Sequence record: MW598459
DNA length: 64,000 bases
Strand: one strand, 5' to 3'
Source of the DNA: Escherichia phage vB_EcoM_RZ
Position 1 is the first letter of the stretch, and every line of letters starts with the position of its first letter. Both the position numbers and the translations under genes were made by a program. The notes beneath the pieces are model-generated. The model had not been told where the DNA came from. It did not search any database and worked only from the letters and a program-made list of their open reading frames with translations. Below, one piece after another: positions 11,447 to 60,265 of the stretch.

Positions 11447-11992
11447 TTGAACCCCTTTAGCATATTCACGACATTCAGCAATAAAACGATTAAGCTTACG
11501 TTTCCGTTTACGACCCTCTAATGTATACTCAGCCGCCAAATCAAGAAGCTCATCTTTATCATAATTTTTAATATCAGTATAAGTTGGGCGGCGGTCAACC
11601 ATTCCAAAGTGGTCACCATTTTCCAACATCAAATAACACACCAAATGGTCATCATCGTCCGCATTAATAAGCTGCTTATAATCACTTGGTTCATTTAACG
11701 CATACACAGAATAACTCAGCCCAGCGAATTCCACTCGTTGAATACCCAGATTTACGTCAATAATTTCCAAGGCATCTGCAAAAGAAAGGTCTTCAGCTAA
11801 AGCAAAAATAAAAGGCAATTTGGTAGTATCGCCGCGACTTGTTGTTCTTCTTAAGAAATCATTGGAATAGCCCAAGTCGCGGCGGATTCTATAAAGAACT
11901 GTGTTAGTTTCAGTGGCAAGACCACTACCGCCAAACCATTCCACATTTGATAAAAGATTATCATATAAAGTCATAATTTTCTCCTCTCCCAA
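11420..11992 (-). CDS. hypothetical protein (C-terminal KRKRK..FIAECRE)
   Basis: 190-aa ORF, acidic core, basic tail. Confidence 0.5.
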   Translation of the reverse strand: MGEEKIMTLYDNLLSNVEWFGGSGLATETNTVLYRIRRDLGYSNDFLRRTTSRGDTTKLPFIFALAEDLSFADALEIIDVNLGIQRVEFAGLSYSVYALNEPSDYKQLINADDDDHLVCYLMLENGDHFGMVDRRPTYTDIKNYDKDELLDLAAEYTLEGRKRKRKLNRFIAECREYAKGVQNANVISAK

Positions 11993-18369: not shown

Positions 18370-19046
18370 TATATTACCTTATTAATTTTATCAAAAAGTT
18401 CTTCGAGTGTGCCATCGTTTTTAATAACAATGTCACTAGCTAGTGGTGGAAGTCCAGCTTCCGTAATGTGTGTATCAGTAGAATGATTTGCTTCATCGCG
18501 TTCTACAAAGATTATTGTAGCACCCATCGCCCGAAGCGAATCAAGTTCGTTCTTTTGGCGAACATCTGGGACAACGTAATATTTATATCCAGAATAGAGG
18601 TTGTCAAGATAGTCGCATGCAAAAGTTTTAATCCAAAACATGCTGTCGAACTCTGTACAAACAATATCAGTTCCAAGGGTCTGCATGAAACGTCTAACTG
18701 TCCAGGGCTCAACATTATTTAGTGTGTGAAATTCAATGATTTTACGAACCATATCTGGATTCGGAAGGTCAAGATTATATTGTTGTTTCAACCATTCAAG
18801 AGCATCAACCAGAAGAATATAAGCTTCGGTGTTGTTCATTATCAAGGTTTTTTCACGGTCATAACCTTGTCCATCAAAATTTTCCAGGGTCAAATTGTGT
18901 GGCAGGTCTTGACGAATCCACGCGTTATAAAGCGCTTCTTTAATCGGACCAGCAAGCTGCCACTTTGTTCCGTTTTGACTAATAACATAATCAGCAGTCG
19001 TATCTTTACCACTGCGTTTTTTACCCACAATCGCAATTAATTTCAT
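18369..19046 (-). CDS. 1: dNMP kinase
   Basis: 225 aa; GKKRSGKDTTADYV, YQLAGPIK, VRRFMQTLGTD, MGATIIFVER, DTHITEAGLP match T4 gp1. Confidence 0.9.
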
Positions 19047-19642
19047 ACGTTTCTCATAGATGGATGCATTGACTTAGACCTGATTTCCTGTTGCATTGCC
19101 GCATTACTATCAATCTGTGGTCTACCTTCTATTATTATACCATCAATTTCTACAGCAAAAGACTTAAAGTTAAAAGTTGCTGTTGCAATGATAGCCGGGT
19201 CAGAATCTTCTTTATATGAATACTGAATCTCTGACAGGTCGGACGGCCATGCTCCATAGTAATGGATTGACATGACAATTTTGTCCTTGTTGTTATCTAA
19301 GATATGAAGCGTGACCGCTTCGGGACGACCCTTCGGATGCCATGCTTTTGATTCGTGTGTGATGTAGTTGTTGAGCGAGAGCATCCATTTATAGATATCA
19401 AGCCATGCTCTTAGGTCTTTGTCACACAGAAAGTTAACAATCAGCGGGTCGAATTCTATTGTACTACCAGGAAGACTGGAGCGATTTATACCTTGTGTTC
19501 CGCCCGGGACATCCGTCACAGGAATGTGAACCCCTGGGAGGGTAACGTCTTGAACGTTTAGTTTAAAGGTCTGTGTGAGGTTTGAATCGCTCACCTCTAA
19601 TATAAAGTTAGTCGTGTTAGTTTGATTATATAAACCTGACAT
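19043..19642 (-). CDS. 3: tail completion / sheath stabilizer protein gp3
   Basis: Between genes 1 and 2 as in T4; start set at MSGLYNQ with SD AGGTG (track ORF extends further upstream). Confidence 0.6.
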   Translation of the reverse strand: MSGLYNQTNTTNFILEVSDSNLTQTFKLNVQDVTLPGVHIPVTDVPGGTQGINRSSLPGSTIEFDPLIVNFLCDKDLRAWLDIYKWMLSLNNYITHESKAWHPKGRPEAVTLHILDNNKDKIVMSIHYYGAWPSDLSEIQYSYKEDSDPAIIATATFNFKSFAVEIDGIIIEGRPQIDSNAAMQQEIRSKSMHPSMRNV

Positions 19643-19653
19643 AGTGCACCTTG

Positions 19654-19681
19654 TTTGCTTTAAAACAATCAGTGTTATAAT
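19654..19681 (+). promoter_or_regulatory. consensus T4 middle (MotA-dependent) promoter, antisense to gene 2
   Basis: Plus strand TTTGCTTTA (MotA box) - 13 bp - TATAAT - GGTTCTAGACC, in the gp3/gp2 intergenic gap and pointing into gene 2. Confidence 0.45.
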
Positions 19682-19727
19682 GGTTCTAGACCTTTTGTCC
19701 TTACCAATAACACTGACCGATAATAGA

Positions 19728-20561
19728 TTATGAATTTCTCCATACTTTCTGTGAAGAAAATCTTTTGCCTTTTGAAAAAAACTGCTGAAGGGGGAGTAAT
19801 ACCACATTTGCCCAGTCACTGGGCTTGATTTCAGTAATAGTACCTTTTATATTGCCAGGTATATATGCTTTAATCATCTGGTCAGCCCCTTTAAATCCCT
19901 TCACCTTTGACCAATCAATCTTCAGATGAGTCTTGTTCGTAATCGTAGGAGTATTAGCATATTGCTTAAGAAGTTCCTCAAGGAACTCTTGACGTGCCTT
20001 CGGTGGAATATAGTGCAAGTTCAAACCATACATCAAATTGTGCTTACCTAGCCCAAGATAAATGATTAACGGATATTTGTCCCAGTACGGAAGAGTATCC
20101 TTATGCTTTGCATCATAGATATAAGCATAAATCTTACCCGGTTGAGGTTTAGCCGTTACGTGGCCACGAACTGATTTCTTAATTGTCTCAGCGAACCATC
20201 TGGCAGATTTGGTGTTGCTTGCTGCGCCTTCGTTAGCAATCTTATCTCTTATGCTCTTTCTAAAGCTATTCACCATTATCAGCTGGCGTTCAGCCTTCGT
20301 AAGTTTACCGGCGGGTTTCTTTTTGAGCTTGGATACTTTATAAGCAGTCTGAATTCTCGAATGATATCTTGACATGCTTTTGGTAAAGGTCGAATAGTTG
20401 ATTCCTTTCTCTTCAGCAAACTTCTTCGAGGTCATTCCCTTTTCTTTTGCTGTATAAAATTCAACCCCTATTTCAACCCATTGTTGTTCGGATTTACTGG
20501 GTTTTGGACCTGGTTTATCTACAGATTCATTGATAAATGTAAAAATACTCATCCTTTCCAT
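19728..20561 (-). CDS. 2: DNA end protector protein gp2
   Basis: 277 aa (T4 gp2 274 aa), basic, between gene 3 and gene 4 region. Confidence 0.7.
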
Positions 20562-21277
20562 CCTTCTATAAAATTAATCAAATCATTTTTTAAATAGTAT
20601 GGTAAGGTTTCTGTATAGCCATCGACCATAATATCTTTATTCAAATAACCTCTGTCTTTTATATATAATACAGATATTGCGGATTCTAACATTTTGGCTT
20701 GTGCACCCAGTTCAAATTCTCGATAATATAATTTGGAACTAATGCATTTGGAAAAATGATTTTGCTGCCACAATCTAAAATCATGATTGGAAGTTATACC
20801 ATACTTTAAAGCAGTTCCGCCCGGATATTCTATTTTATTAACATAAACAATAGCAGGTTTCTTTGCGTTAAATCCTTTGTGACAACAGTTTGGACATCCT
20901 TTGTTTTTTGTTGTAAAGTTGTTTAGATTTGTAATCCAACTGGTTGAACATGTAGAACACTTTATATAGGCTTTTGATTTTGTAAAAGTTGAATATGTGG
21001 TATCCCATTTATCAAAACTATACAATGGATTCACGGAATTTATTCTTGTGATTGCATCTAATTCAGATATTAATTTGCTTTCACCATAAGAACGTTTTAA
21101 ATTACAATTAGAACACCAACTTTTTGTTTTTAACTTATGCTTTAAAACAGTTGCTTTGTATTTGCATGTTTCTTCACATATAAAGCACTTTACAAATATC
21201 AAAGTTTTTGATTTATTAAAATCGCCTTGTCCCACTATCTCGCCATTTGTGATGTTAAAATCTGAACAATCGTACAT
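20549..21277 (-). CDS. inserted Zn-ribbon protein with C-terminal GIY-YIG-like nuclease motifs
   Basis: 242 aa; CxxC pairs ([22 protein letters not shown]); then AIVYV-x11-KYGIT, downstream R and E; no gene at this position in T4. Confidence 0.5.
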
Positions 21278-21729
21278 TATAAACCCTTATATCCCATTTT
21301 TCTAAGCGCATCTTCAGTAATCAATCTAAACTGGATGCCCATTTTATCGGCTACGGCCTGCGCTGCTTTCCACTTATCCTTGTTAACGGCCCAAGTGTAC
21401 ATTTCGTTCATAAACCTCTTCTTACTTGCGGCGGTCGTATTGACTGGTTTTGCCGGCGGCCTTGTTTCCTTTTTGGGTTTGACCTCAAAGAAAAACTGTT
21501 GTCCATTTGAGAATTTCACCCACATATCCATGTAATATCTGCGTTTTTTACCATCCGCATTACTGAAATATGGAATAATTACGGTCTCAGAGCCCCATTG
21601 TATCACATCTGGATGATTATCTAACCAATTAAATACAAATTTTTCCCAATTTGACCTGTATGTGATTTTCTTCCAGTCTCCTTTGTACTTGGCAACGTTT
21701 TTTGGCTGCCACTTCCCGGAGTATGCCAT
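21277..21729 (-). CDS. 4: head completion protein gp4
   Basis: 150 aa (T4 gp4 150 aa); divergent from gene 53; late promoter just upstream. Confidence 0.75.
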   Translation of the reverse strand: MAYSGKWQPKNVAKYKGDWKKITYRSNWEKFVFNWLDNHPDVIQWGSETVIIPYFSNADGKKRRYYMDMWVKFSNGQQFFFEVKPKKETRPPAKPVNTTAASKKRFMNEMYTWAVNKDKWKAAQAVADKMGIQFRLITEDALRKMGYKGL

Positions 21730-21757
21730 ATAGCCTCCTAATAAATATTGATATACT

Positions 21758-21765
21758 TATTTATA
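21758..21765 (-). promoter_or_regulatory. late promoter (TATAAATA) for gene 4
   Basis: Plus TATTTATA = minus TATAAATA about 30 nt upstream of gp4 ATG. Confidence 0.5.
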
Positions 21766-21777
21766 AATGGAGGCTTT

Positions 21778-22380
21778 ATGCTTTTTTCATTTTTTAACCC
21801 AATTGATTATGATGCAAAAACAATCAGAAAAAACTCGGCATCATTAACGAAAGAAGACGTCTTAAGCATCCCAATGACTGACATCTTCAGAAACTATCGT
21901 GCCTATTTTGATAAGGTTGCGGTTAATTATACACCAAAAACATATTACATCGCTGGAGCTCCGAGACCTGAAGAACTTGCATACCAGCTCTATGGAAACA
22001 CGCAACTCTATTGGGTTCTCCTTATGCTTAATAATATCTATGACCCTTATTATGGTTGGATATGTTCACAAGAATCATCGTATCAGGCATCAATTCAACG
22101 CTATTCAAATATAGGTGGTAATCAGGTTCTTTATCATGTAAATGAAGATGGTGAAAAATTCTGGAATCTTGTTTCTTATCCTGATAATCCGTACACCTGG
22201 TATGATAAAGGTGATAAGAATAAATTGTACCCACAATATGAAGGTCCATTGGCTGCAGTAGATATCTATGAAGATGCTATTCGCAAAAATGAATATAAAC
22301 GAGAAATAAAGATAATCGACCCTAATGATATCGAATCATTTATTTCGGCATTAATCCGTGAGATGGAGAAGGCATTATGA
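21778..22380 (+). CDS. 53: baseplate wedge protein gp53
   Basis: Start at ATG after SD AATGGAGG; 200 aa; position before gene 5. Confidence 0.75.
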   Translation: MLFSFFNPIDYDAKTIRKNSASLTKEDVLSIPMTDIFRNYRAYFDKVAVNYTPKTYYIAGAPRPEELAYQLYGNTQLYWVLLMLNNIYDPYYGWICSQESSYQASIQRYSNIGGNQVLYHVNEDGEKFWNLVSYPDNPYTWYDKGDKNKLYPQYEGPLAAVDIYEDAIRKNEYKREIKIIDPNDIESFISALIREMEKAL

Positions 22381-24119
22381 TTAATATGTCAGATAATGTA
22401 AGTTGGTTCGTCGGTGTTGTCGAAGACCGAATGGACCCACTTCAACAAGGCCGAGTCCGTGTCCGTGTATGGGGTATGCATCCATATGAGAAATCGCAAG
22501 GGCCTGTAAAAGGTATCAGAACTGAAGACCTGCCATGGATGTCTGTACTGATGCCAACATCATCTGCATCAGTTTCTGGTATTCAAACTGCAATGACCGG
22601 TATGGTGCCAGGGACTCAAGTATATGGTCACTTTTTAGACAAGTGGAAACTCAACGGGCTTGTTATTGGTACGTATGGTTCAGCCTCAAGACAAAAAGCA
22701 AATCCCAACGAAGGCTTCTCTGACCCCACAGGACAATATCCACTTTATGTAGGTAATGATGCTGCTGCGCTCAACCGTGGCGGTGAGGTTGGTTATGATG
22801 CAACTTCGAACGTAATTCAGGATGCAAACACCGATGTAGGTATTAACCCTGATGGCCTTGATTTGAGTCAAGTTAAGCCAGATGATAATCCTAATTTCAC
22901 AATTGAAAATATGCTTCACCGTGATGAAGGTCTTCGTTTGAAAGTATATTGGGACACCGAAGGTTATCCTACTATAGGTATAGGACACTTAATTGCACCA
23001 CAACCTATTAGAGATATGAATCAGATAAACAAAATATTATCTAATCAAATAGGCCGTGAAGTTAAAGGTAACCCTGGTGCAATATCAATGGACGAGGCTT
23101 CTAAGTTATTCCAGGAAGACCTTAAAAAAGTTCAAAACGATATAGGCCGGCATAGTGTTGTAGGCCCGGTTTACAATAAAGAAAACCGTTCGAGACAAAT
23201 GGCTCTTGAAAACATGGCTTTCCAAATGGGATTGGGTGGGCTTGCTAAATTTAAAACGATGCTCGCTGCAATGTTAGCCGGAGATTATAAGAAAGCATTT
23301 GATGCCGCCCGTGATTCTGTATGGTTTAACCAAACTAAAGGCCGTGCATCAAGGGTATCAATGATTATCCTCACAGGTAATATGGAATCATATGGTATTA
23401 TGGCCCCTAAAGAAAGGTCATTTAAAGGGCGTTCATATAGGATGATTCAAACCTTTGCAGCCCCTGCAAATTCTGACCCAGCCGACCCGTGGACTCCAGA
23501 AGATACGAGGATTTTGTTTAAAGAGCCAGAATCCAGTTACAAGGGCGAATATCCTTATGTGCAGACAATGCAAACTGAAGGCGGGCATGTTCAGGAATTC
23601 GATAACACCCCTGGACAAGAACGTTATCGACTGATTCACCCGACCGGTTCCTATGAGGAAGTTGCACCAGATGGTCGTAAGACTTCGAAGACAGTGGCTG
23701 ATGGATATTATATGACCCAGGGCGATTCGAGTACTTACGTTGGCGGTAATAATAAAGTCAACGTTGGTGGTGATGAAACCTATTATAATATGGCTAACGT
23801 TCGTCGTCAGACCGATGGAAACGAAAGCATTCATATTCGTGGGAATGAAACCAAAACCATTGAAGGTGACGGTACAATTATTGTCAAAGGTAATGTAAGT
23901 ATTCTGGTCGAAGGTAATGCTGAAATAACTGTTAAAGGTGACGCAAAAACTCTTGTCGAAGGTAACCATGATTATACGGTAAATGGTAATGTCAAATGGT
24001 CCGTTAATGGAAACGTTGATATGACCGTGGCTGGCAATTGGTCCGAAACAATGTCAACAATGAGTTCTATTGCATCTGGTCAATATACTATTGATGGTTC
24101 GAGGATTGACATTGGCTAA
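22377..24119 (+). CDS. 5: baseplate hub + tail lysozyme gp5
   Basis: 580 aa; N-terminal OB domain, lysozyme domain (DEGLRLKVYWDTEGYPTIGIGHLI) and C-terminal beta-helix repeats (VEGNAEITVKGDAKTLVEGN). Confidence 0.95.
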   Translation: MINMSDNVSWFVGVVEDRMDPLQQGRVRVRVWGMHPYEKSQGPVKGIRTEDLPWMSVLMPTSSASVSGIQTAMTGMVPGTQVYGHFLDKWKLNGLVIGTYGSASRQKANPNEGFSDPTGQYPLYVGNDAAALNRGGEVGYDATSNVIQDANTDVGINPDGLDLSQVKPDDNPNFTIENMLHRDEGLRLKVYWDTEGYPTIGIGHLIAPQPIRDMNQINKILSNQIGREVKGNPGAISMDEASKLFQEDLKKVQNDIGRHSVVGPVYNKENRSRQMALENMAFQMGLGGLAKFKTMLAAMLAGDYKKAFDAARDSVWFNQTKGRASRVSMIILTGNMESYGIMAPKERSFKGRSYRMIQTFAAPANSDPADPWTPEDTRILFKEPESSYKGEYPYVQTMQTEGGHVQEFDNTPGQERYRLIHPTGSYEEVAPDGRKTSKTVADGYYMTQGDSSTYVGGNNKVNVGGDETYYNMANVRRQTDGNESIHIRGNETKTIEGDGTIIVKGNVSILVEGNAEITVKGDAKTLVEGNHDYTVNGNVKWSVNGNVDMTVAGNWSETMSTMSSIASGQYTIDGSRIDIG

Positions 24120-24129
24120 TATACTTCCA

Positions 24130-24651
24130 ATGAGCACTGACCTAGGAGACTCCATGGAAGGAGCCTCAATCGATGTTACGTTTACGGCTCAATTAGAAAC
24201 AAACGAAACATTAGTCGAAATAAATATAACTGAATATGAGGCCACCCCTGGCGTTAATGTTGAGGAGAATCATCTTTATGGTGTTTATGAATCCGTGTTC
24301 GGATTCGCAGATGATGCACTTAAATATCGGCTTAATGATGAATTCAAAACTGCCGGTTCATGGGAAGACCTTCCTACCGATAAGAGTACTCAATTGTATC
24401 TCTGGAGGGCTCCAGCGAGCCTCCAGAAGGTCTTTTCATACACGGTAACCCTAACCTATGACTTTCAAGAAGAGAGCTCTGGTGGAGACACAGGGAGCTC
24501 CGGCGGCAGTAATAGCCGTGCAGGTAATGAGACCGACCCACCTCCTGCTCCAGTAAGAAAAACAATGACAAAAGTTTACACAAAAACTATCGTTGGTAAC
24601 TGGTCAAGATGGGCAGATAAACTGCGTTCATACGTATACGCGAGGGATTAA
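24130..24651 (+). CDS. 5.1: gp5.1-like hypothetical protein
   Basis: Start at MSTDLGD just after gp5 stop; position matches T4 5.1. Confidence 0.5.
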
Positions 24652-54775: not shown

Positions 54776-54873
54776 AATCTCTCACTTTTGATGTTATAAA
54801 TATCATTATAAATTAGACCCACTATACTTTCTTTCTCTGAAAGGAATTAATAGTCGCAAAGGGGTCTAGAACC

Positions 54874-54901
54874 ATTATACCACAATTTTATTTGAAGCAA
54901 A
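54874..54901 (-). promoter_or_regulatory. T4 middle (MotA) promoter for rnlB
   Basis: Minus strand TTTGCTTCA - 13 bp - TATAAT - GGTTCTAGACCCC. Confidence 0.55.
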
Positions 54902-54905
54902 AAGG

Positions 54906-59154: not shown

Positions 59155-59388
59155 TTAATTTTCCTTAAAGTATCTCATACCGGTATCTATTCCCATATTG
59201 TGAGAATAGAACGCATCATCGATGTATCCTGCAAATTTACCTTTAACATAGATAACATCTTCACCACAAGGGTGGTCAGCGCAGATACGAATATCTGCAC
59301 GATTCAATTTCCATTCCTTCATCATATACTTAATTTCTTCTTCGAACTCTTCGTCTTGGTTAAACGCATCGTCGATAGAATATCGCAT
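59155..59388 (-). CDS. uvsY.-1: UvsY.-1-like protein
   Basis: 77 aa (T4 UvsY.-1 76 aa), immediately downstream of uvsY. Confidence 0.55.
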   Translation of the reverse strand: MRYSIDDAFNQDEEFEEEIKYMMKEWKLNRADIRICADHPCGEDVIYVKGKFAGYIDDAFYSHNMGIDTGMRYFKEN

Positions 59389-59822
59389 TACTTGCCCGCC
59401 TCAAATTGTCTTATTTCTAACATATGTTTAAGTGCGAAACTTCGTGACTTAACACCATCTAATGCAGCGCTACAGAAGTCCTGGAGCAGTGTCCAATACT
59501 GAATTGACGTATCAATCTTCAGTACGCTTGAATCTGCGGCCATGACTGTTTTCAATTCTGACTTCTCGTACACATCCATGCATACTTCTTCCCCTGGGTC
59601 ACCCCTTCCTGTATAATGGTCTAGTCGTTTTTTCAGTGCAGTTTTCTTCTGAATCTCAAGACGCATTATTTCTTTCTTGCAGTTGGTATACAATCTCAAC
59701 CATTTGCTATGCAACAAAACGTTGTTTTGTGTTTCATATTGAAGTTGTGTACCATCAATTTTTAAATCTGCATCTAACTCATCCTGAAAGACTTCTAACT
59801 TATATTCAATCTCTGTTTTCAT
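59388..59822 (-). CDS. uvsY: UvsY recombination mediator
   Basis: Start at MKTEIEYKLE; LQYETQNNVLLHSKWL, LDHYTGRGD, LKIDTSIQYW, KHMLEIRQFEAGK match T4 UvsY. Confidence 0.9.
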   Translation of the reverse strand: MKTEIEYKLEVFQDELDADLKIDGTQLQYETQNNVLLHSKWLRLYTNCKKEIMRLEIQKKTALKKRLDHYTGRGDPGEEVCMDVYEKSELKTVMAADSSVLKIDTSIQYWTLLQDFCSAALDGVKSRSFALKHMLEIRQFEAGK

Positions 59823-59850
59823 AATGTATCCAATGTAAGGGTCTAGAACC

Positions 59851-59877
59851 ATTATACAGCCATAAAATTAAAGCATT
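59851..59877 (-). promoter_or_regulatory. T4 middle (MotA) promoter for uvsY
   Basis: Minus strand AATGCTTTA - 12 bp - TATAAT - GGTTCTAGACCC; box overlaps gp25 stop. Confidence 0.6.
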
Positions 59878-60265
59878 AACCGTTTTGACTTAGCTGAATC
59901 CTGATTTGTTCGAGGGTATCAGGGTCATCAACAATGCTGAACTGAACTGTTACGATAATGGAGTTATCATCATACATAGGGACAACTGCCACCTGTAGAT
60001 TGCTTATCCTTGGTTCGAAGTTCCGCACCGCGGAGACGATGTTGCGTTTAATGGTATCTGTGATTAATGGAGTGATATTCTCGAAAAGCTGATTACTTAT
60101 ATCACATCCAAATTCAGGCATAAAAGGCCTTGACCCTTTTCTTGTGGTGATTATTCCCAAAAGACTGTTCTTAACAGACCTTGCACCAGTTACTTTAGCA
60201 ACGTCTTTATCCCAACTTGTAGATAAGTCGGGAGACACATCGCTATACATTTTGTTTATATTCAT
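59876..60265 (-). CDS. 25: baseplate wedge protein gp25
   Basis: 129 aa (T4 gp25 132 aa); position uvsY-25-26. Confidence 0.8.
   Translation of the reverse strand: MNINKMYSDVSPDLSTSWDKDVAKVTGARSVKNSLLGIITTRKGSRPFMPEFGCDISNQLFENITPLITDTIKRNIVSAVRNFEPRISNLQVAVVPMYDDNSIIVTVQFSIVDDPDTLEQIRIQLSQNG

What the first reader, a model, noticed from the sequence alone, without database searches (positions are those of the whole stretch)
19654..19692. Consensus middle promoter oriented antisense to gene 2
The 85-bp gap between gp3 and gp2 (both minus strand) contains, on the plus strand, TTTGCTTTA - 13 bp - TATAAT - GGTTCTAGACC. This matches the T4 MotA-box / -10 middle-promoter architecture and carries the same TATAATGGTTCTAGACC core as the rnlB and uvsY middle promoters. 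Its orientation would drive transcription into the antisense strand of gene 2 and onward toward the inserted gene and gene 4. Only a 33-codon plus-strand ORF follows it. It could make a regulatory antisense RNA, be a stranded relic of a promoter cassette, or serve a function I cannot infer.
Basis: seen in the sequence. Interest (0 to 1): 0.5.

Follow-up and report, generated by a model that had tools for sequence, protein, structure and literature searches.

The report
Conserved backward-facing middle promoter beside gene 2
Between two late structural genes of this T4-like phage lies a textbook MotA-type "middle" promoter pointing the wrong way; it is conserved in T4 itself and many relatives, is missing from the published T4 promoter list, and public T4 data suggest it makes a MotA-dependent non-coding RNA opposite the DNA-end-protector gene.

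Summary
On the + strand, in the 85-bp gap between gene 3 and gene 2 (both on the - strand), lie TTTGCTTTA, a 13-bp spacer, TATAAT and GGTTCTAGACC. Only three sites in the 64-kb window match TGCTTnA-N11-13-TATAAT (0.07 expected by chance). All three carry the same 17-mer. The other two sit upstream of rnlB and uvsY.

The window is a Gaprivervirus (VR7/DK-13-like), a genus that encodes MotA and AsiA. The promoter is not a relic. In nine lineages, including T4 (75968-75993, + strand), the only invariant bases of the gap are TATAATGG and the GCT core of a MotA box 12-14 bp upstream.

The T4 copy is absent from the 58 mapped T4 middle promoters. Public T4 RNA-seq nevertheless shows a MotA-dependent RNA that covers gene 2 but not genes 4 or 3. 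No sense-strand promoter could explain it.

My best reading is an active middle promoter starting at A19688. It would make an untranslated antisense RNA across gene 2 that restrains this late operon before late times. The main rival is an R-loop primer like oriF/oriG. The promoter identity is well supported; the function is inferred. It is a new member of a known kind, of moderate interest.

The parts
19654..19662 (+). MotA box TTTGCTTTA (core TGCTTTA at 19656-19662), centred near -30
   Evidence: Sequence; motif scans. A (T/C)GCT(T/A)(T/A)N box lies 12-14 bp upstream of the -10 element in all nine lineages compared. On the - strand the same bases supply the U-run after the hairpin.
19673..19681 (+). 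Extended -10 element: TGT followed by TATAAT (hexamer at 19676-19681)
   Evidence: TATAAT is invariant in 12 of 12 aligned sequences and in 9 of 9 lineages.
19682..19692 (+). GGTTCT discriminator, predicted start site A19688, and the first transcribed bases AGACC
   Evidence: This stretch is identical in the phage's rnlB and uvsY promoters. The start site is placed by analogy with T4 PuvsY, whose mapped start 115371 is the 7th base after TATAAT. GG after the -10 is invariant, and A at +1 occurs in 8 of 9 lineages.
19688..20561 (+). Predicted untranslated antisense transcript across gene 2. The 3' end is not defined; the extent is inferred from T4.
   Evidence: T4 RNA-seq at 5 min shows MotA-dependent reads over gene 2 but few over gene 4 or gene 3. 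The downstream ORF is not conserved, since T4 lacks the ATG. The RNA has no exceptional fold, z = +0.19.
19810..19832 (+). Weak terminator-like hairpin GCCCAGTCACTGGGC followed by TTGATTTC; doubtful
   Evidence: Found, but the region holds no more such sites than shuffled sequence. It lies in the conserved gp2 codons EIKPSDWAN, so coding constraint explains its conservation.
19666..19719 (-). Stable hairpin in the gene 2-gene 3 intercistronic RNA, followed by UUUUAAAGC. It overlaps the promoter on the opposite strand.
   Evidence: Free energy is -23.9 kcal/mol, z = -3.5, with 0 of 200 shuffles as stable. Equivalent hairpins occur in Dhakavirus-like loci (z = -2.5 and -2.6) but are weak or shifted in T4 and others. 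One A-U to G-U to G-C compensatory series is visible. A rho-independent terminator is annotated at this position in Morganella phage MP1.
19043..19642 (-). Gene 3 (tail completion and sheath stabiliser), last cistron of the late 4-2-3 operon
   Evidence: There is no TATAAATA late promoter between 21765 and 18587 on the - strand.
19728..20561 (-). Gene 2 (DNA end protector), the target of the antisense transcript
54863..54902 (-). Sister promoter upstream of rnlB: TTTGCTTCA, 13 bp, TATAATGGTTCTAGACC
59840..59878 (-). Sister promoter upstream of uvsY (the oriF position in T4): AATGCTTTA, 12 bp, TATAATGGTTCTAGACC

Best explanation
This is a genuine MotA/AsiA-dependent middle promoter of the 'uvsY type'. 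It has an extended -10 element, a GG discriminator and an A start. It sits inside the late operon 4-(endonuclease ORF)-2-3 and fires against it.

From about 2 min after infection, RNA polymerase carrying AsiA and MotA would start at A19688. It would transcribe rightward into the 3' end of gene 2, making a low-abundance, untranslated RNA complementary to gene 2. That RNA probably ends, by Rho or decay, within roughly a kilobase.

I infer that its job is temporal control in cis. Convergent transcription and antisense pairing would keep gene 2 silent before the late period. gp2 caps DNA ends and is harmful if made at the wrong time. The same mechanism, together with the - strand hairpin and U-run that share these bases, would stop pre-late read-through from the right from entering gene 3.

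What is shown and what is inferred:
- Shown: the sequence match, its statistical excess, its conservation, and the presence of MotA and AsiA in the genus.
- Shown only in T4: a MotA-dependent RNA unit over gene 2.
- Inferred: the strand of that RNA, the start site, and the regulatory purpose.
For: - Motif and excess over chance.
- Footprint: TATAATGG and the GCT core are the only invariant bases of the gap in 12 sequences and 9 lineages, at fixed position and orientation.
- T4 has AATGCTTTA, 13 bp, TATAATGGGTCTAAGTCC at 75968 on the + strand.
- The core is shared with PuvsY, a mapped MotA-dependent promoter with start site 115371.
- VR7 encodes motA and asiA.
- T4 RNA-seq at 5 min, mean reads in wt / motAam / wt phage in a dksA- host: gene 3 131/25/78; gene 2 1208/61/681; gene 4 527/22/47. 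The RNA over gene 2 is therefore 20-fold MotA-dependent. It is uncoupled from gene 4, which lies upstream in the late operon, and from gene 3.
- No late or middle promoter candidate exists on the sense strand between 77371 and 76885.
- A second T4 data set, counted with featureCounts at default settings (unstranded, from my knowledge of that tool), puts gene 2 in the 'middle' transcript class while genes 3, 4, 53 and 5 are 'late'. Gene 34, which holds the antisense promoter P34i, is also 'middle'.
- No conserved ORF or RNA fold lies downstream.
- A second T4 promoter of the same core (11866-11890, + strand) sits just past the modA stop and points back into modA/modB, the same geometry.
- From memory, not checked here: plasmid-expressed gp2 impairs cell viability and lambda Red recombination (Appasani et al. 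1999).
Against: - No transcript data exist for this phage.
- The strand of the T4 reads over gene 2 is not known. The libraries were stranded, but the counting mode is not stated.
- The RNA is sparse: about 1.5 reads per bp over gene 2 against about 24 per bp for gene 1.
- Middle promoters are shut off when late transcription starts, so overlap in time with the late gene 2 mRNA is limited.
- The promoter is missing in Jiaodavirus, where genes 2 and 3 abut. It is also missing in Gualtar-, Tulane-, Krisch- and Mylasvirus, so it is dispensable in some lineages.
- The T4 copy is not among the 58 mapped middle promoters. From memory, the Stoskiene 2007 abstract says that some good consensus matches give no transcript.
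Confidence: 0.45

Rival explanations
1. R-loop replication primer, that is, an oriF/oriG-type origin or accessory initiation site. The middle-mode transcript would stay hybridised to an easily unwound region just downstream and prime rightward leading-strand synthesis toward genes 4, 53 and 5.
For: - T4 oriF and oriG are each a MotA-dependent promoter plus a downstream unwinding element. One of them, P34i, is likewise an antisense promoter inside a late gene with no coding role.
- In both T4 and this phage the 3/2 promoter shares its -10 and first transcribed bases with PuvsY, which is oriF.
- It lies 1.4-2 kb from a strand-switch point, as oriE, oriF and oriG do.
- It lies about 3.3 kb from T4 oriE.
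- No ORF or folded RNA product is evident.
- The RNA is sparse, as expected for a primer.
Against: - The review of T4 origins reports only oriF and oriG from the plasmid screens. [quoted passage not shown] The review also states that no middle-mode promoter lies near oriE.
- Duplex stability and AT content of +1 to +60 do not separate the known origin promoters from ordinary ones, so a downstream unwinding element could be neither shown nor excluded.
- The same core occurs at ordinary promoters: T4 PnrdC.7 and this phage's rnlB promoter.
- The element is absent in Jiaodavirus.
Confidence: 0.2
2. An active but functionless promoter. It would be a leftover of an ancient + strand gene or endonuclease cassette, kept similar to PuvsY by gene conversion, whose antisense RNA is tolerated noise.
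For: - Krischvirus carries an 84-aa ORF in exactly this gap and orientation.
- The gap is an endonuclease insertion hot spot: VR7 ORF161c, L011 and L016.
- The mobile-element review notes that invading cassettes can leave antisense promoters.
- Within each genus the core resembles that genus's own PuvsY, which fits homogenisation by recombination.
- It has been lost in several lineages.
Against: - The promoter determinants are invariant across lineages whose intergenic DNA is otherwise unalignable and whose gp3 proteins are only 47-55% identical.
- A neutral 30-bp bipartite motif would not survive that divergence.
- Gene conversion from PuvsY would not keep the MotA box, which differs between the copies.
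Confidence: 0.12
3. The conserved bases serve the - strand, as part of the gene 2-gene 3 intercistronic hairpin, terminator or processing site of the late mRNA. On this view the promoter resemblance on the + strand is incidental.
For: - There is a strong - strand hairpin followed by a U-run (z = -3.5).
- Similar hairpins occur in Dhakavirus-like loci.
- One compensatory series passes through a G-U pair that is possible only in the - strand RNA.
- A terminator is annotated at this position in phage MP1.
Against: - RNAalifold finds no common structure across the 12 sequences.
- In T4 the predicted hairpin does not include CCAUUAUA.
- Stems vary while TATAATGG never covaries.
- A correctly spaced GCT box is present in every lineage.
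- The identical 17-mer works in sense orientation at uvsY and rnlB.
- The two functions can coexist, and that is my reading.
Confidence: 0.08
4. A middle-mode promoter that reads through genes 2 and 4 in antisense and supplies early sense transcripts of the + strand genes 53 and 5, about 2 kb downstream.
For: Genes 53 and 5 are on the + strand downstream, and no strong intrinsic terminator lies between.
Against: - In T4 in the dksA- host, read density falls from about 825 per kb (gene 2) to about 104 per kb (gene 4) and about 71 per kb (gene 53).
- Genes 4, 53 and 5 are in the 'late' transcript class.
- A late promoter serves gene 53 directly.
Confidence: 0.05

Closest known systems
T4 PuvsY, the MotA-dependent middle promoter that also primes origin oriF
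   Same: It has a MotA box 12-13 bp from an extended -10 TATAAT, a G-rich discriminator, TCT-A at the start site and a similar first transcribed pentamer. In this phage the two promoters share an identical 17-mer, and in T4 the shared stretch is GGTATAATG(A/G)(A/G)TCTAAGTCC.
   Different: PuvsY is in sense orientation and drives uvsY. Its start site and MotA dependence are measured and its origin function is shown. The 3/2 promoter faces away from every neighbouring gene and has never been mapped.
T4 P34i, the antisense middle promoter inside late gene 34 (origin oriG)
   Same: It is a MotA-dependent promoter pointing against a late structural gene, with no ORF to express. Its core TATAATGGTCCCA resembles the Dhakavirus 3/2 core TATAATGGTCCTA. 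Gene 34 and gene 2 are both scored 'middle' in RNA-seq counted at featureCounts defaults.
   Different: P34i lies inside a coding sequence rather than in an intercistronic gap, and its origin activity has been demonstrated.
Antisense transcription of T4 gene 32 (Belin et al. 1987, cited)
   Same: It is a precedent for antisense RNA opposite a T4 gene.
   Different: It involves a different gene, class and promoter. I could not read that paper, so the comparison is nominal.
PeSL mobile early-promoter/stem-loop cassettes of T4-type phages (Arbiol et al. 2010; from memory, not checked)
   Same: A short promoter-containing module is repeated at several places in one genome, next to a stem-loop.
   Different: Here the promoter is of the MotA-box type with no -35 element. 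The scan did not call it a sigma-70 -35/-10 promoter. It occupies a fixed syntenic position in many genera rather than hyperplastic regions, and only about 17-20 bp are shared.

Membership tests
T4-type MotA/AsiA-dependent middle promoter | Excellent sigma-70 -10 element (TAnnnT, usually TATAAT) | tested here: met
   TATAAT at 19676-19681, preceded by TGT as an extended -10 element. It is invariant in all lineages.
T4-type MotA/AsiA-dependent middle promoter | MotA box (a/t)(a/t)(a/t)TGCTTtA centred at -30, 12 +/- 1 bp from the -10 element (definition) | tested here: met
   gTTTGCTTTA with a 13-bp spacer. Only the outermost W position is G.
T4-type MotA/AsiA-dependent middle promoter | No functional sigma-70 -35 hexamer in place of the MotA box | tested here: met
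   The site is not reported by the -35/-10 consensus scan of 18500-24500. The best -35 register matches 3 of 6 bases.
T4-type MotA/AsiA-dependent middle promoter | The phage encodes MotA and AsiA | tested here: met
   VR7, the same genus and 96% identical here, has annotated asiA and motA. The genes lie outside the 64-kb window, so this particular phage was not checked.
T4-type MotA/AsiA-dependent middle promoter | A 5' end at the predicted start that depends on MotA and AsiA in vivo or in vitro | not testable with these tools
   Support is indirect and from T4 only. Reads over gene 2 fall 20-fold in motAam and are uncoupled from genes 4 and 3. The T4 copy is absent from the list of 58 mapped promoters.
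T4 R-loop origin (oriF/oriG type) | A MotA-dependent promoter supplying the primer RNA | tested here: met
   Met at sequence level only, as in the rows above.
T4 R-loop origin (oriF/oriG type) | An A+T-rich DNA unwinding element within about 50 bp downstream | tested here: inconclusive
   AT fraction is 0.67 and nearest-neighbour free energy is -71.2 kcal/mol for +1 to +60. The same measure does not set PuvsY (-68.8) or P34i (-73.7) apart from 56 ordinary T4 promoters.
T4 R-loop origin (oriF/oriG type) | Autonomous replication of a cloned fragment, or initiation seen by 2D gel or array | not testable with these tools
   The published origin maps list none at this position.
cis-encoded antisense RNA regulator | A transcript from the strand opposite an expressed gene, overlapping it | tested here: inconclusive
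   The geometry is met. A T4 RNA unit lies over gene 2, but its strand is unknown.
cis-encoded antisense RNA regulator | A change in target expression when the antisense promoter is removed | not testable with these tools
   This needs mutants.
PeSL mobile promoter cassette | An early sigma-70 promoter with a -35 element plus a stem-loop, scattered in variable regions | tested here: not met
   The promoter has a MotA box instead of a -35 element. Its position is syntenic in at least 9 lineages. It occurs exactly three times per Gaprivervirus genome, at fixed loci.

The most novel reading that the evidence does not exclude
The gene 3/gene 2 promoter, and its T4 twin between srd and modA, form an unrecognised class of conserved 'uvsY-type' middle promoters that exist only to transcribe against their neighbours. 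The 3/2 member would then be one of two things. It could be a previously unmapped R-loop initiation site contributing to the poorly understood oriE-region replication. Or it could be a dedicated antisense switch that keeps the DNA-end-capping protein gp2 from interfering with recombination-dependent replication before packaging begins.
Probability: 0.2. Interest if true: 0.65.

Novelty: new member of a known kind. Interest (0 to 1): 0.42.

Why it matters
T4 middle transcription is among the best catalogued promoter systems, with 58 mapped promoters. Yet one of the closest matches to the consensus in the genome is not in that catalogue. It is conserved from T4 to Acinetobacter phages and faces backwards inside a late operon.

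If it is active, T4-type phages deliberately transcribe against the DNA-end-protector gene during the replication period. That bears on two open questions: how late structural genes are kept silent before late transcription, and what initiates replication in the oriE region. The origins review states that no middle promoter lies nearby.

The question can be settled cheaply from existing stranded RNA-seq and dRNA-seq data for T4.

Tried and rejected
- Coding role for the 32-codon + strand ORF (19730-19828). Rejected: T4 lacks the ATG, there is no Shine-Dalgarno sequence, and Pfam gives no hit.
- Known RNA family. Rfam at E <= 5 gave only a chance LhrC hit at 23.7 bits against a gathering score of 110.
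- Structured + strand RNA. The fold has z = +0.19.
- + strand terminator at 19810-19824. It lies in the conserved gp2 codons EIKPSDWAN, has a weak U-tract and is no more frequent than in shuffles. An apparent frame difference from T4 there was my own misreading; the protein alignment corrected it.
- Common - strand hairpin across all lineages. RNAalifold found none, and hairpins are lineage-specific.
- Unwinding-element test by duplex stability, AT content and purine content. It does not separate the known origins from ordinary promoters.
- Literature. The Miller 2003, Truncaite 2003 and Stoskiene 2007 papers are not held. Sequence-string and 'anti-late RNA' searches found nothing relevant. 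The T4 dRNA-seq table listing 22 antisense start sites is not held.
- A degenerate-pattern scan of viral contigs was swamped by chance hits and was not used.
- Using gene 34 as a control for the strandedness of the Patterson-West counts was not decisive.

Full report
**What the window is.** The region around the finding is 96-98% identical to Gaprivervirus phages (DK-13, VR20, VR25, VR26, VR7, SP18), which are T4-type Straboviridae. The gene order is that of T4: 57A, 1, 3, 2, [extra ORF], 4 on the - strand, then 53 and 5 on the + strand.

- On the + strand lie TTTGCTTTA (19654-19662), a 13-bp spacer, TATAAT (19676-19681) and GGTTCTAGACC (19682-19692).
- They sit in the 85-bp gap between the gene 3 ATG (19642) and the gene 2 stop (19728).
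- TGCTTNA-N11-13-TATAAT occurs three times in 64 kb on both strands, against 0.07 expected.
- All three sites carry the identical 17-mer TATAATGGTTCTAGACC, against 0.12 expected even with 3 mismatches allowed.
- The other two sites are the rnlB and uvsY promoters.
- The 17-mer occurs exactly three times in each complete Gaprivervirus genome held in IMG/VR.

**It is a conserved element, not a relic.** T4 has AATGCTTTA, 13 bp, TATAATGGGTCTAAGTCC at 75968 on the + strand, in the same gap and the same orientation. I collected the gap from other lineages:
- Dhakavirus-like, three unnamed lineages (L017, L020, L021) and a ZZ1-like contig (L023).
- Mosigvirus, Karamvirus and Acinetobacter phage ZZ1.

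In a 12-sequence alignment the only invariant blocks are CCATTATA (the reverse complement of TATAATGG) and AGC (the reverse complement of the GCT core of the MotA box). When the sequences are anchored on the -10 element, all nine lineages keep three things:
- TATAATGG.
- An A at the 7th base downstream, in 8 of 9.
- A (T/C)GCT(T/A)(T/A)N box 12-14 bp upstream.

The promoter is absent where genes 2 and 3 abut (Jiaodavirus, Mylasvirus) and in Gualtar-, Braga-, Tulane- and Krischvirus. The activators are present in the genus, since VR7 has annotated motA and asiA.

**Relation to known T4 promoters.** The mapped PuvsY start (115371) is the 7th base after TATAAT. By analogy the start here is A19688.

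T4 has four promoters with the core GGTATAATG(G/A)NTCTAAG(T/C)CC:
- PuvsY.
- PnrdC.7.
- The 3/2 promoter.
- A second backward-facing one between srd and modA (11866-11890, + strand).

Neither backward-facing promoter is in the table of 58 identified T4 middle promoters. The origins review states that no middle-mode promoter lies near oriE.

Within each genus the 3/2 core resembles that genus's own PuvsY:
- Gaprivervirus: GGTTCTAGACC at both.
- Dhakavirus: GGTCCTAGGTC against GGTCCTATGGTT.
- T4: GGGTCTAAGTCC against GAATCTAAGTCC.

This points either to homogenisation by recombination or to co-evolution with a lineage-specific factor. I cannot tell which. From general knowledge, the GG after the -10 element matches the optimal discriminator contacted by sigma region 1.2 (Haugen et al. 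2006). That may explain part of the shared core.

**Is it active?** There are no data for this phage. Two public T4 data sets bear on the question.

(a) Wolfram-Schauerte et al. 2022 counted reads with featureCounts at default settings; from my knowledge of that tool, the default ignores strand. They class gene 2 transcripts as 'middle', while genes 3, 4, 53 and 5 are 'late'. Gene 34, which contains the antisense promoter P34i, is also 'middle'.

(b) Patterson-West et al. 2018 give T4 RNA-seq at 5 min in their Table S1. Mean reads were:

| Gene | wt | motAam | wt phage in dksA- host |
|---|---|---|---|
| 3 | 131 | 25 | 78 |
| 2 | 1208 | 61 | 681 |
| 4 | 527 | 22 | 47 |
| 53 | 597 | 14 | 42 |

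- The RNA over gene 2 is 20-fold MotA-dependent.
- In the dksA- host, where the gene 4 and gene 53 late transcripts collapse, it remains about 8-fold denser per kb than over gene 4. Gene 4 lies upstream in the late operon.
- It is also about 5.6-fold denser per kb than over gene 3.
- Differential decay of one polycistronic mRNA cannot give this condition-specific uncoupling.
- On the sense strand there is no TATAAATA and no relaxed middle promoter between the gene 4 late promoter (77371) and gene 2.
- The consensus + strand promoter sits exactly at the low-to-high step.

The caveat is that the counting strand is not stated. The RNA is also sparse compared with the gene 1 mRNA.

**What the product is.**
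- The 32-codon ORF is not conserved.
- The + strand RNA has no unusual fold and no Rfam match.
- The only terminator-like hairpin is weak and lies in conserved gp2 codons.

The likely product is therefore an untranslated antisense RNA of up to about 0.9 kb, perhaps ended by Rho.

**Overlapping - strand feature.**
- The same bases encode, on the - strand, a stable hairpin (19719-19666; -23.9 kcal/mol; z = -3.5). Its trailing U-run is the reverse complement of the MotA box.
- Similar hairpins exist in Dhakavirus-like loci, with one A-U to G-U to G-C compensatory series.
- A terminator is annotated at this position in phage MP1.
- The structure is not universal.

Genes 4, 2 and 3 share one late promoter (21765), so late transcription must pass both the hairpin and the opposing promoter.

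**Mechanism.** I favour antisense or convergent-transcription control of the 4-2-3 operon before late times (confidence about 0.45 for the whole statement, about 0.85 for promoter identity). The T4 srd/modA twin has the same geometry, pointing back into toxic early genes. gp2 binds DNA ends, which T4 needs free for recombination-dependent replication. The report that gp2 is harmful comes from memory.

The main rival is an R-loop primer like oriF or oriG (0.2). It is attractive because the only characterised antisense middle promoter, P34i, is an origin. Against it, published origin maps show nothing at this position, and my unwinding-element test was uninformative.

The weaker rivals are a functionless relic, a purely - strand RNA element, and a promoter for genes 53 and 5. 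Each is argued in its own entry.

**Verdict.** It is another middle promoter, so a new member of a known kind. Its orientation, its deep conservation and its absence from the T4 catalogue make it moderately interesting, and it can be tested directly with existing T4 data.

Noticed in passing
T4 NC_000866 11866-11890 (+), locus L005: T4 has a second consensus middle promoter facing against all its neighbours: AATGCTTTA, 12 bp, TATAATGAATCTAAGTCCTTCCATT. It lies in the srd/modA gap, 11 nt past the modA stop, and shares about 35 bp with PuvsY and the 3/2 promoter. It is not in the list of 58 mapped T4 middle promoters.
   Followed up: partly
window 19666-19719 (-): A stable hairpin followed by a U-run lies in the gene 2-gene 3 intercistronic RNA and shares its bases with the + strand promoter. 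The reverse complement of the MotA box forms the U-run. There is one compensatory A-U to G-U to G-C series among relatives. A terminator is annotated at the same position in Morganella phage MP1.
   Followed up: partly
window 20549-21277 (-): An extra 242-aa ORF between gene 2 and gene 4 overlaps both. It matches phrog_681 'endonuclease' (E = 2.5e-29) and has a weak treble-clef zinc-finger hit. It is present in DK-13 and absent from VR7 and VR20. It is probably a free-standing homing endonuclease.
   Followed up: partly
L001 3228-3884 (VR7 ORF161c); also L011 and L016: In VR7, VR25 and some Dhakavirus phages a MobB-like endonuclease gene is inserted exactly at the gene 2 stop. The 84-bp promoter-containing gap next to gene 3 is left intact. 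The gene 3/gene 2 junction is therefore an endonuclease insertion hot spot.
   Followed up: partly
window 19134-19157 (-): There is a candidate middle promoter for gene 1 inside the 3' end of gene 3: TGCTGTA, 11 bp, TATAAT with TGG before the hexamer. Genes 3 and 1 overlap here, unlike in T4, where P1 sits in a 49-bp gap. Together with the 3/2 promoter it forms a divergent pair flanking gene 3, as in T4.
   Followed up: no
window 54813-54826 (-): A degenerate second copy of the core, TATAGTGGGTCTAA, lies about 45 nt downstream of the rnlB promoter in the rnlB leader. It resembles the T4-type core TATAATGGGTCTAAG.
   Followed up: no
T4 PnrdC.7 (start 53325): The mapped T4 promoter PnrdC.7 carries TATAATGGTTCTAAGCCC, almost the Gaprivervirus 17-mer. 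The shared core is therefore a recurrent 'strong core' of a subset of middle promoters and is not specific to origins.
   Followed up: partly
L174 157-411 (Krischvirus KMB43): RB49-like phages, which an earlier study found to lack MotA, carry an 84-aa coiled-coil-like ORF (phrog_17832, function unknown) in the gene 2-gene 3 gap. It is in the same backward orientation as the promoter studied here.
   Followed up: partly
window 59850-59852 (-): The ATG inside TATAATGG of the uvsY promoter is in frame with uvsY. Mechanical ORF calling therefore extends uvsY by 10 codons (59388-59852). The real start is the ATG at 59822.
   Followed up: no
L168 and L170 (Gualtarvirus MP1, Bragavirus Pm5461), gene 2-gene 3 gap: These genera have a gap of about 210 bp. 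It holds two copies of a module of about 45-65 bp (for example TATATATAAGNATTAAGTAATAGATTA) flanking a GC-rich terminator hairpin. There is no MotA-type promoter.
   Followed up: no
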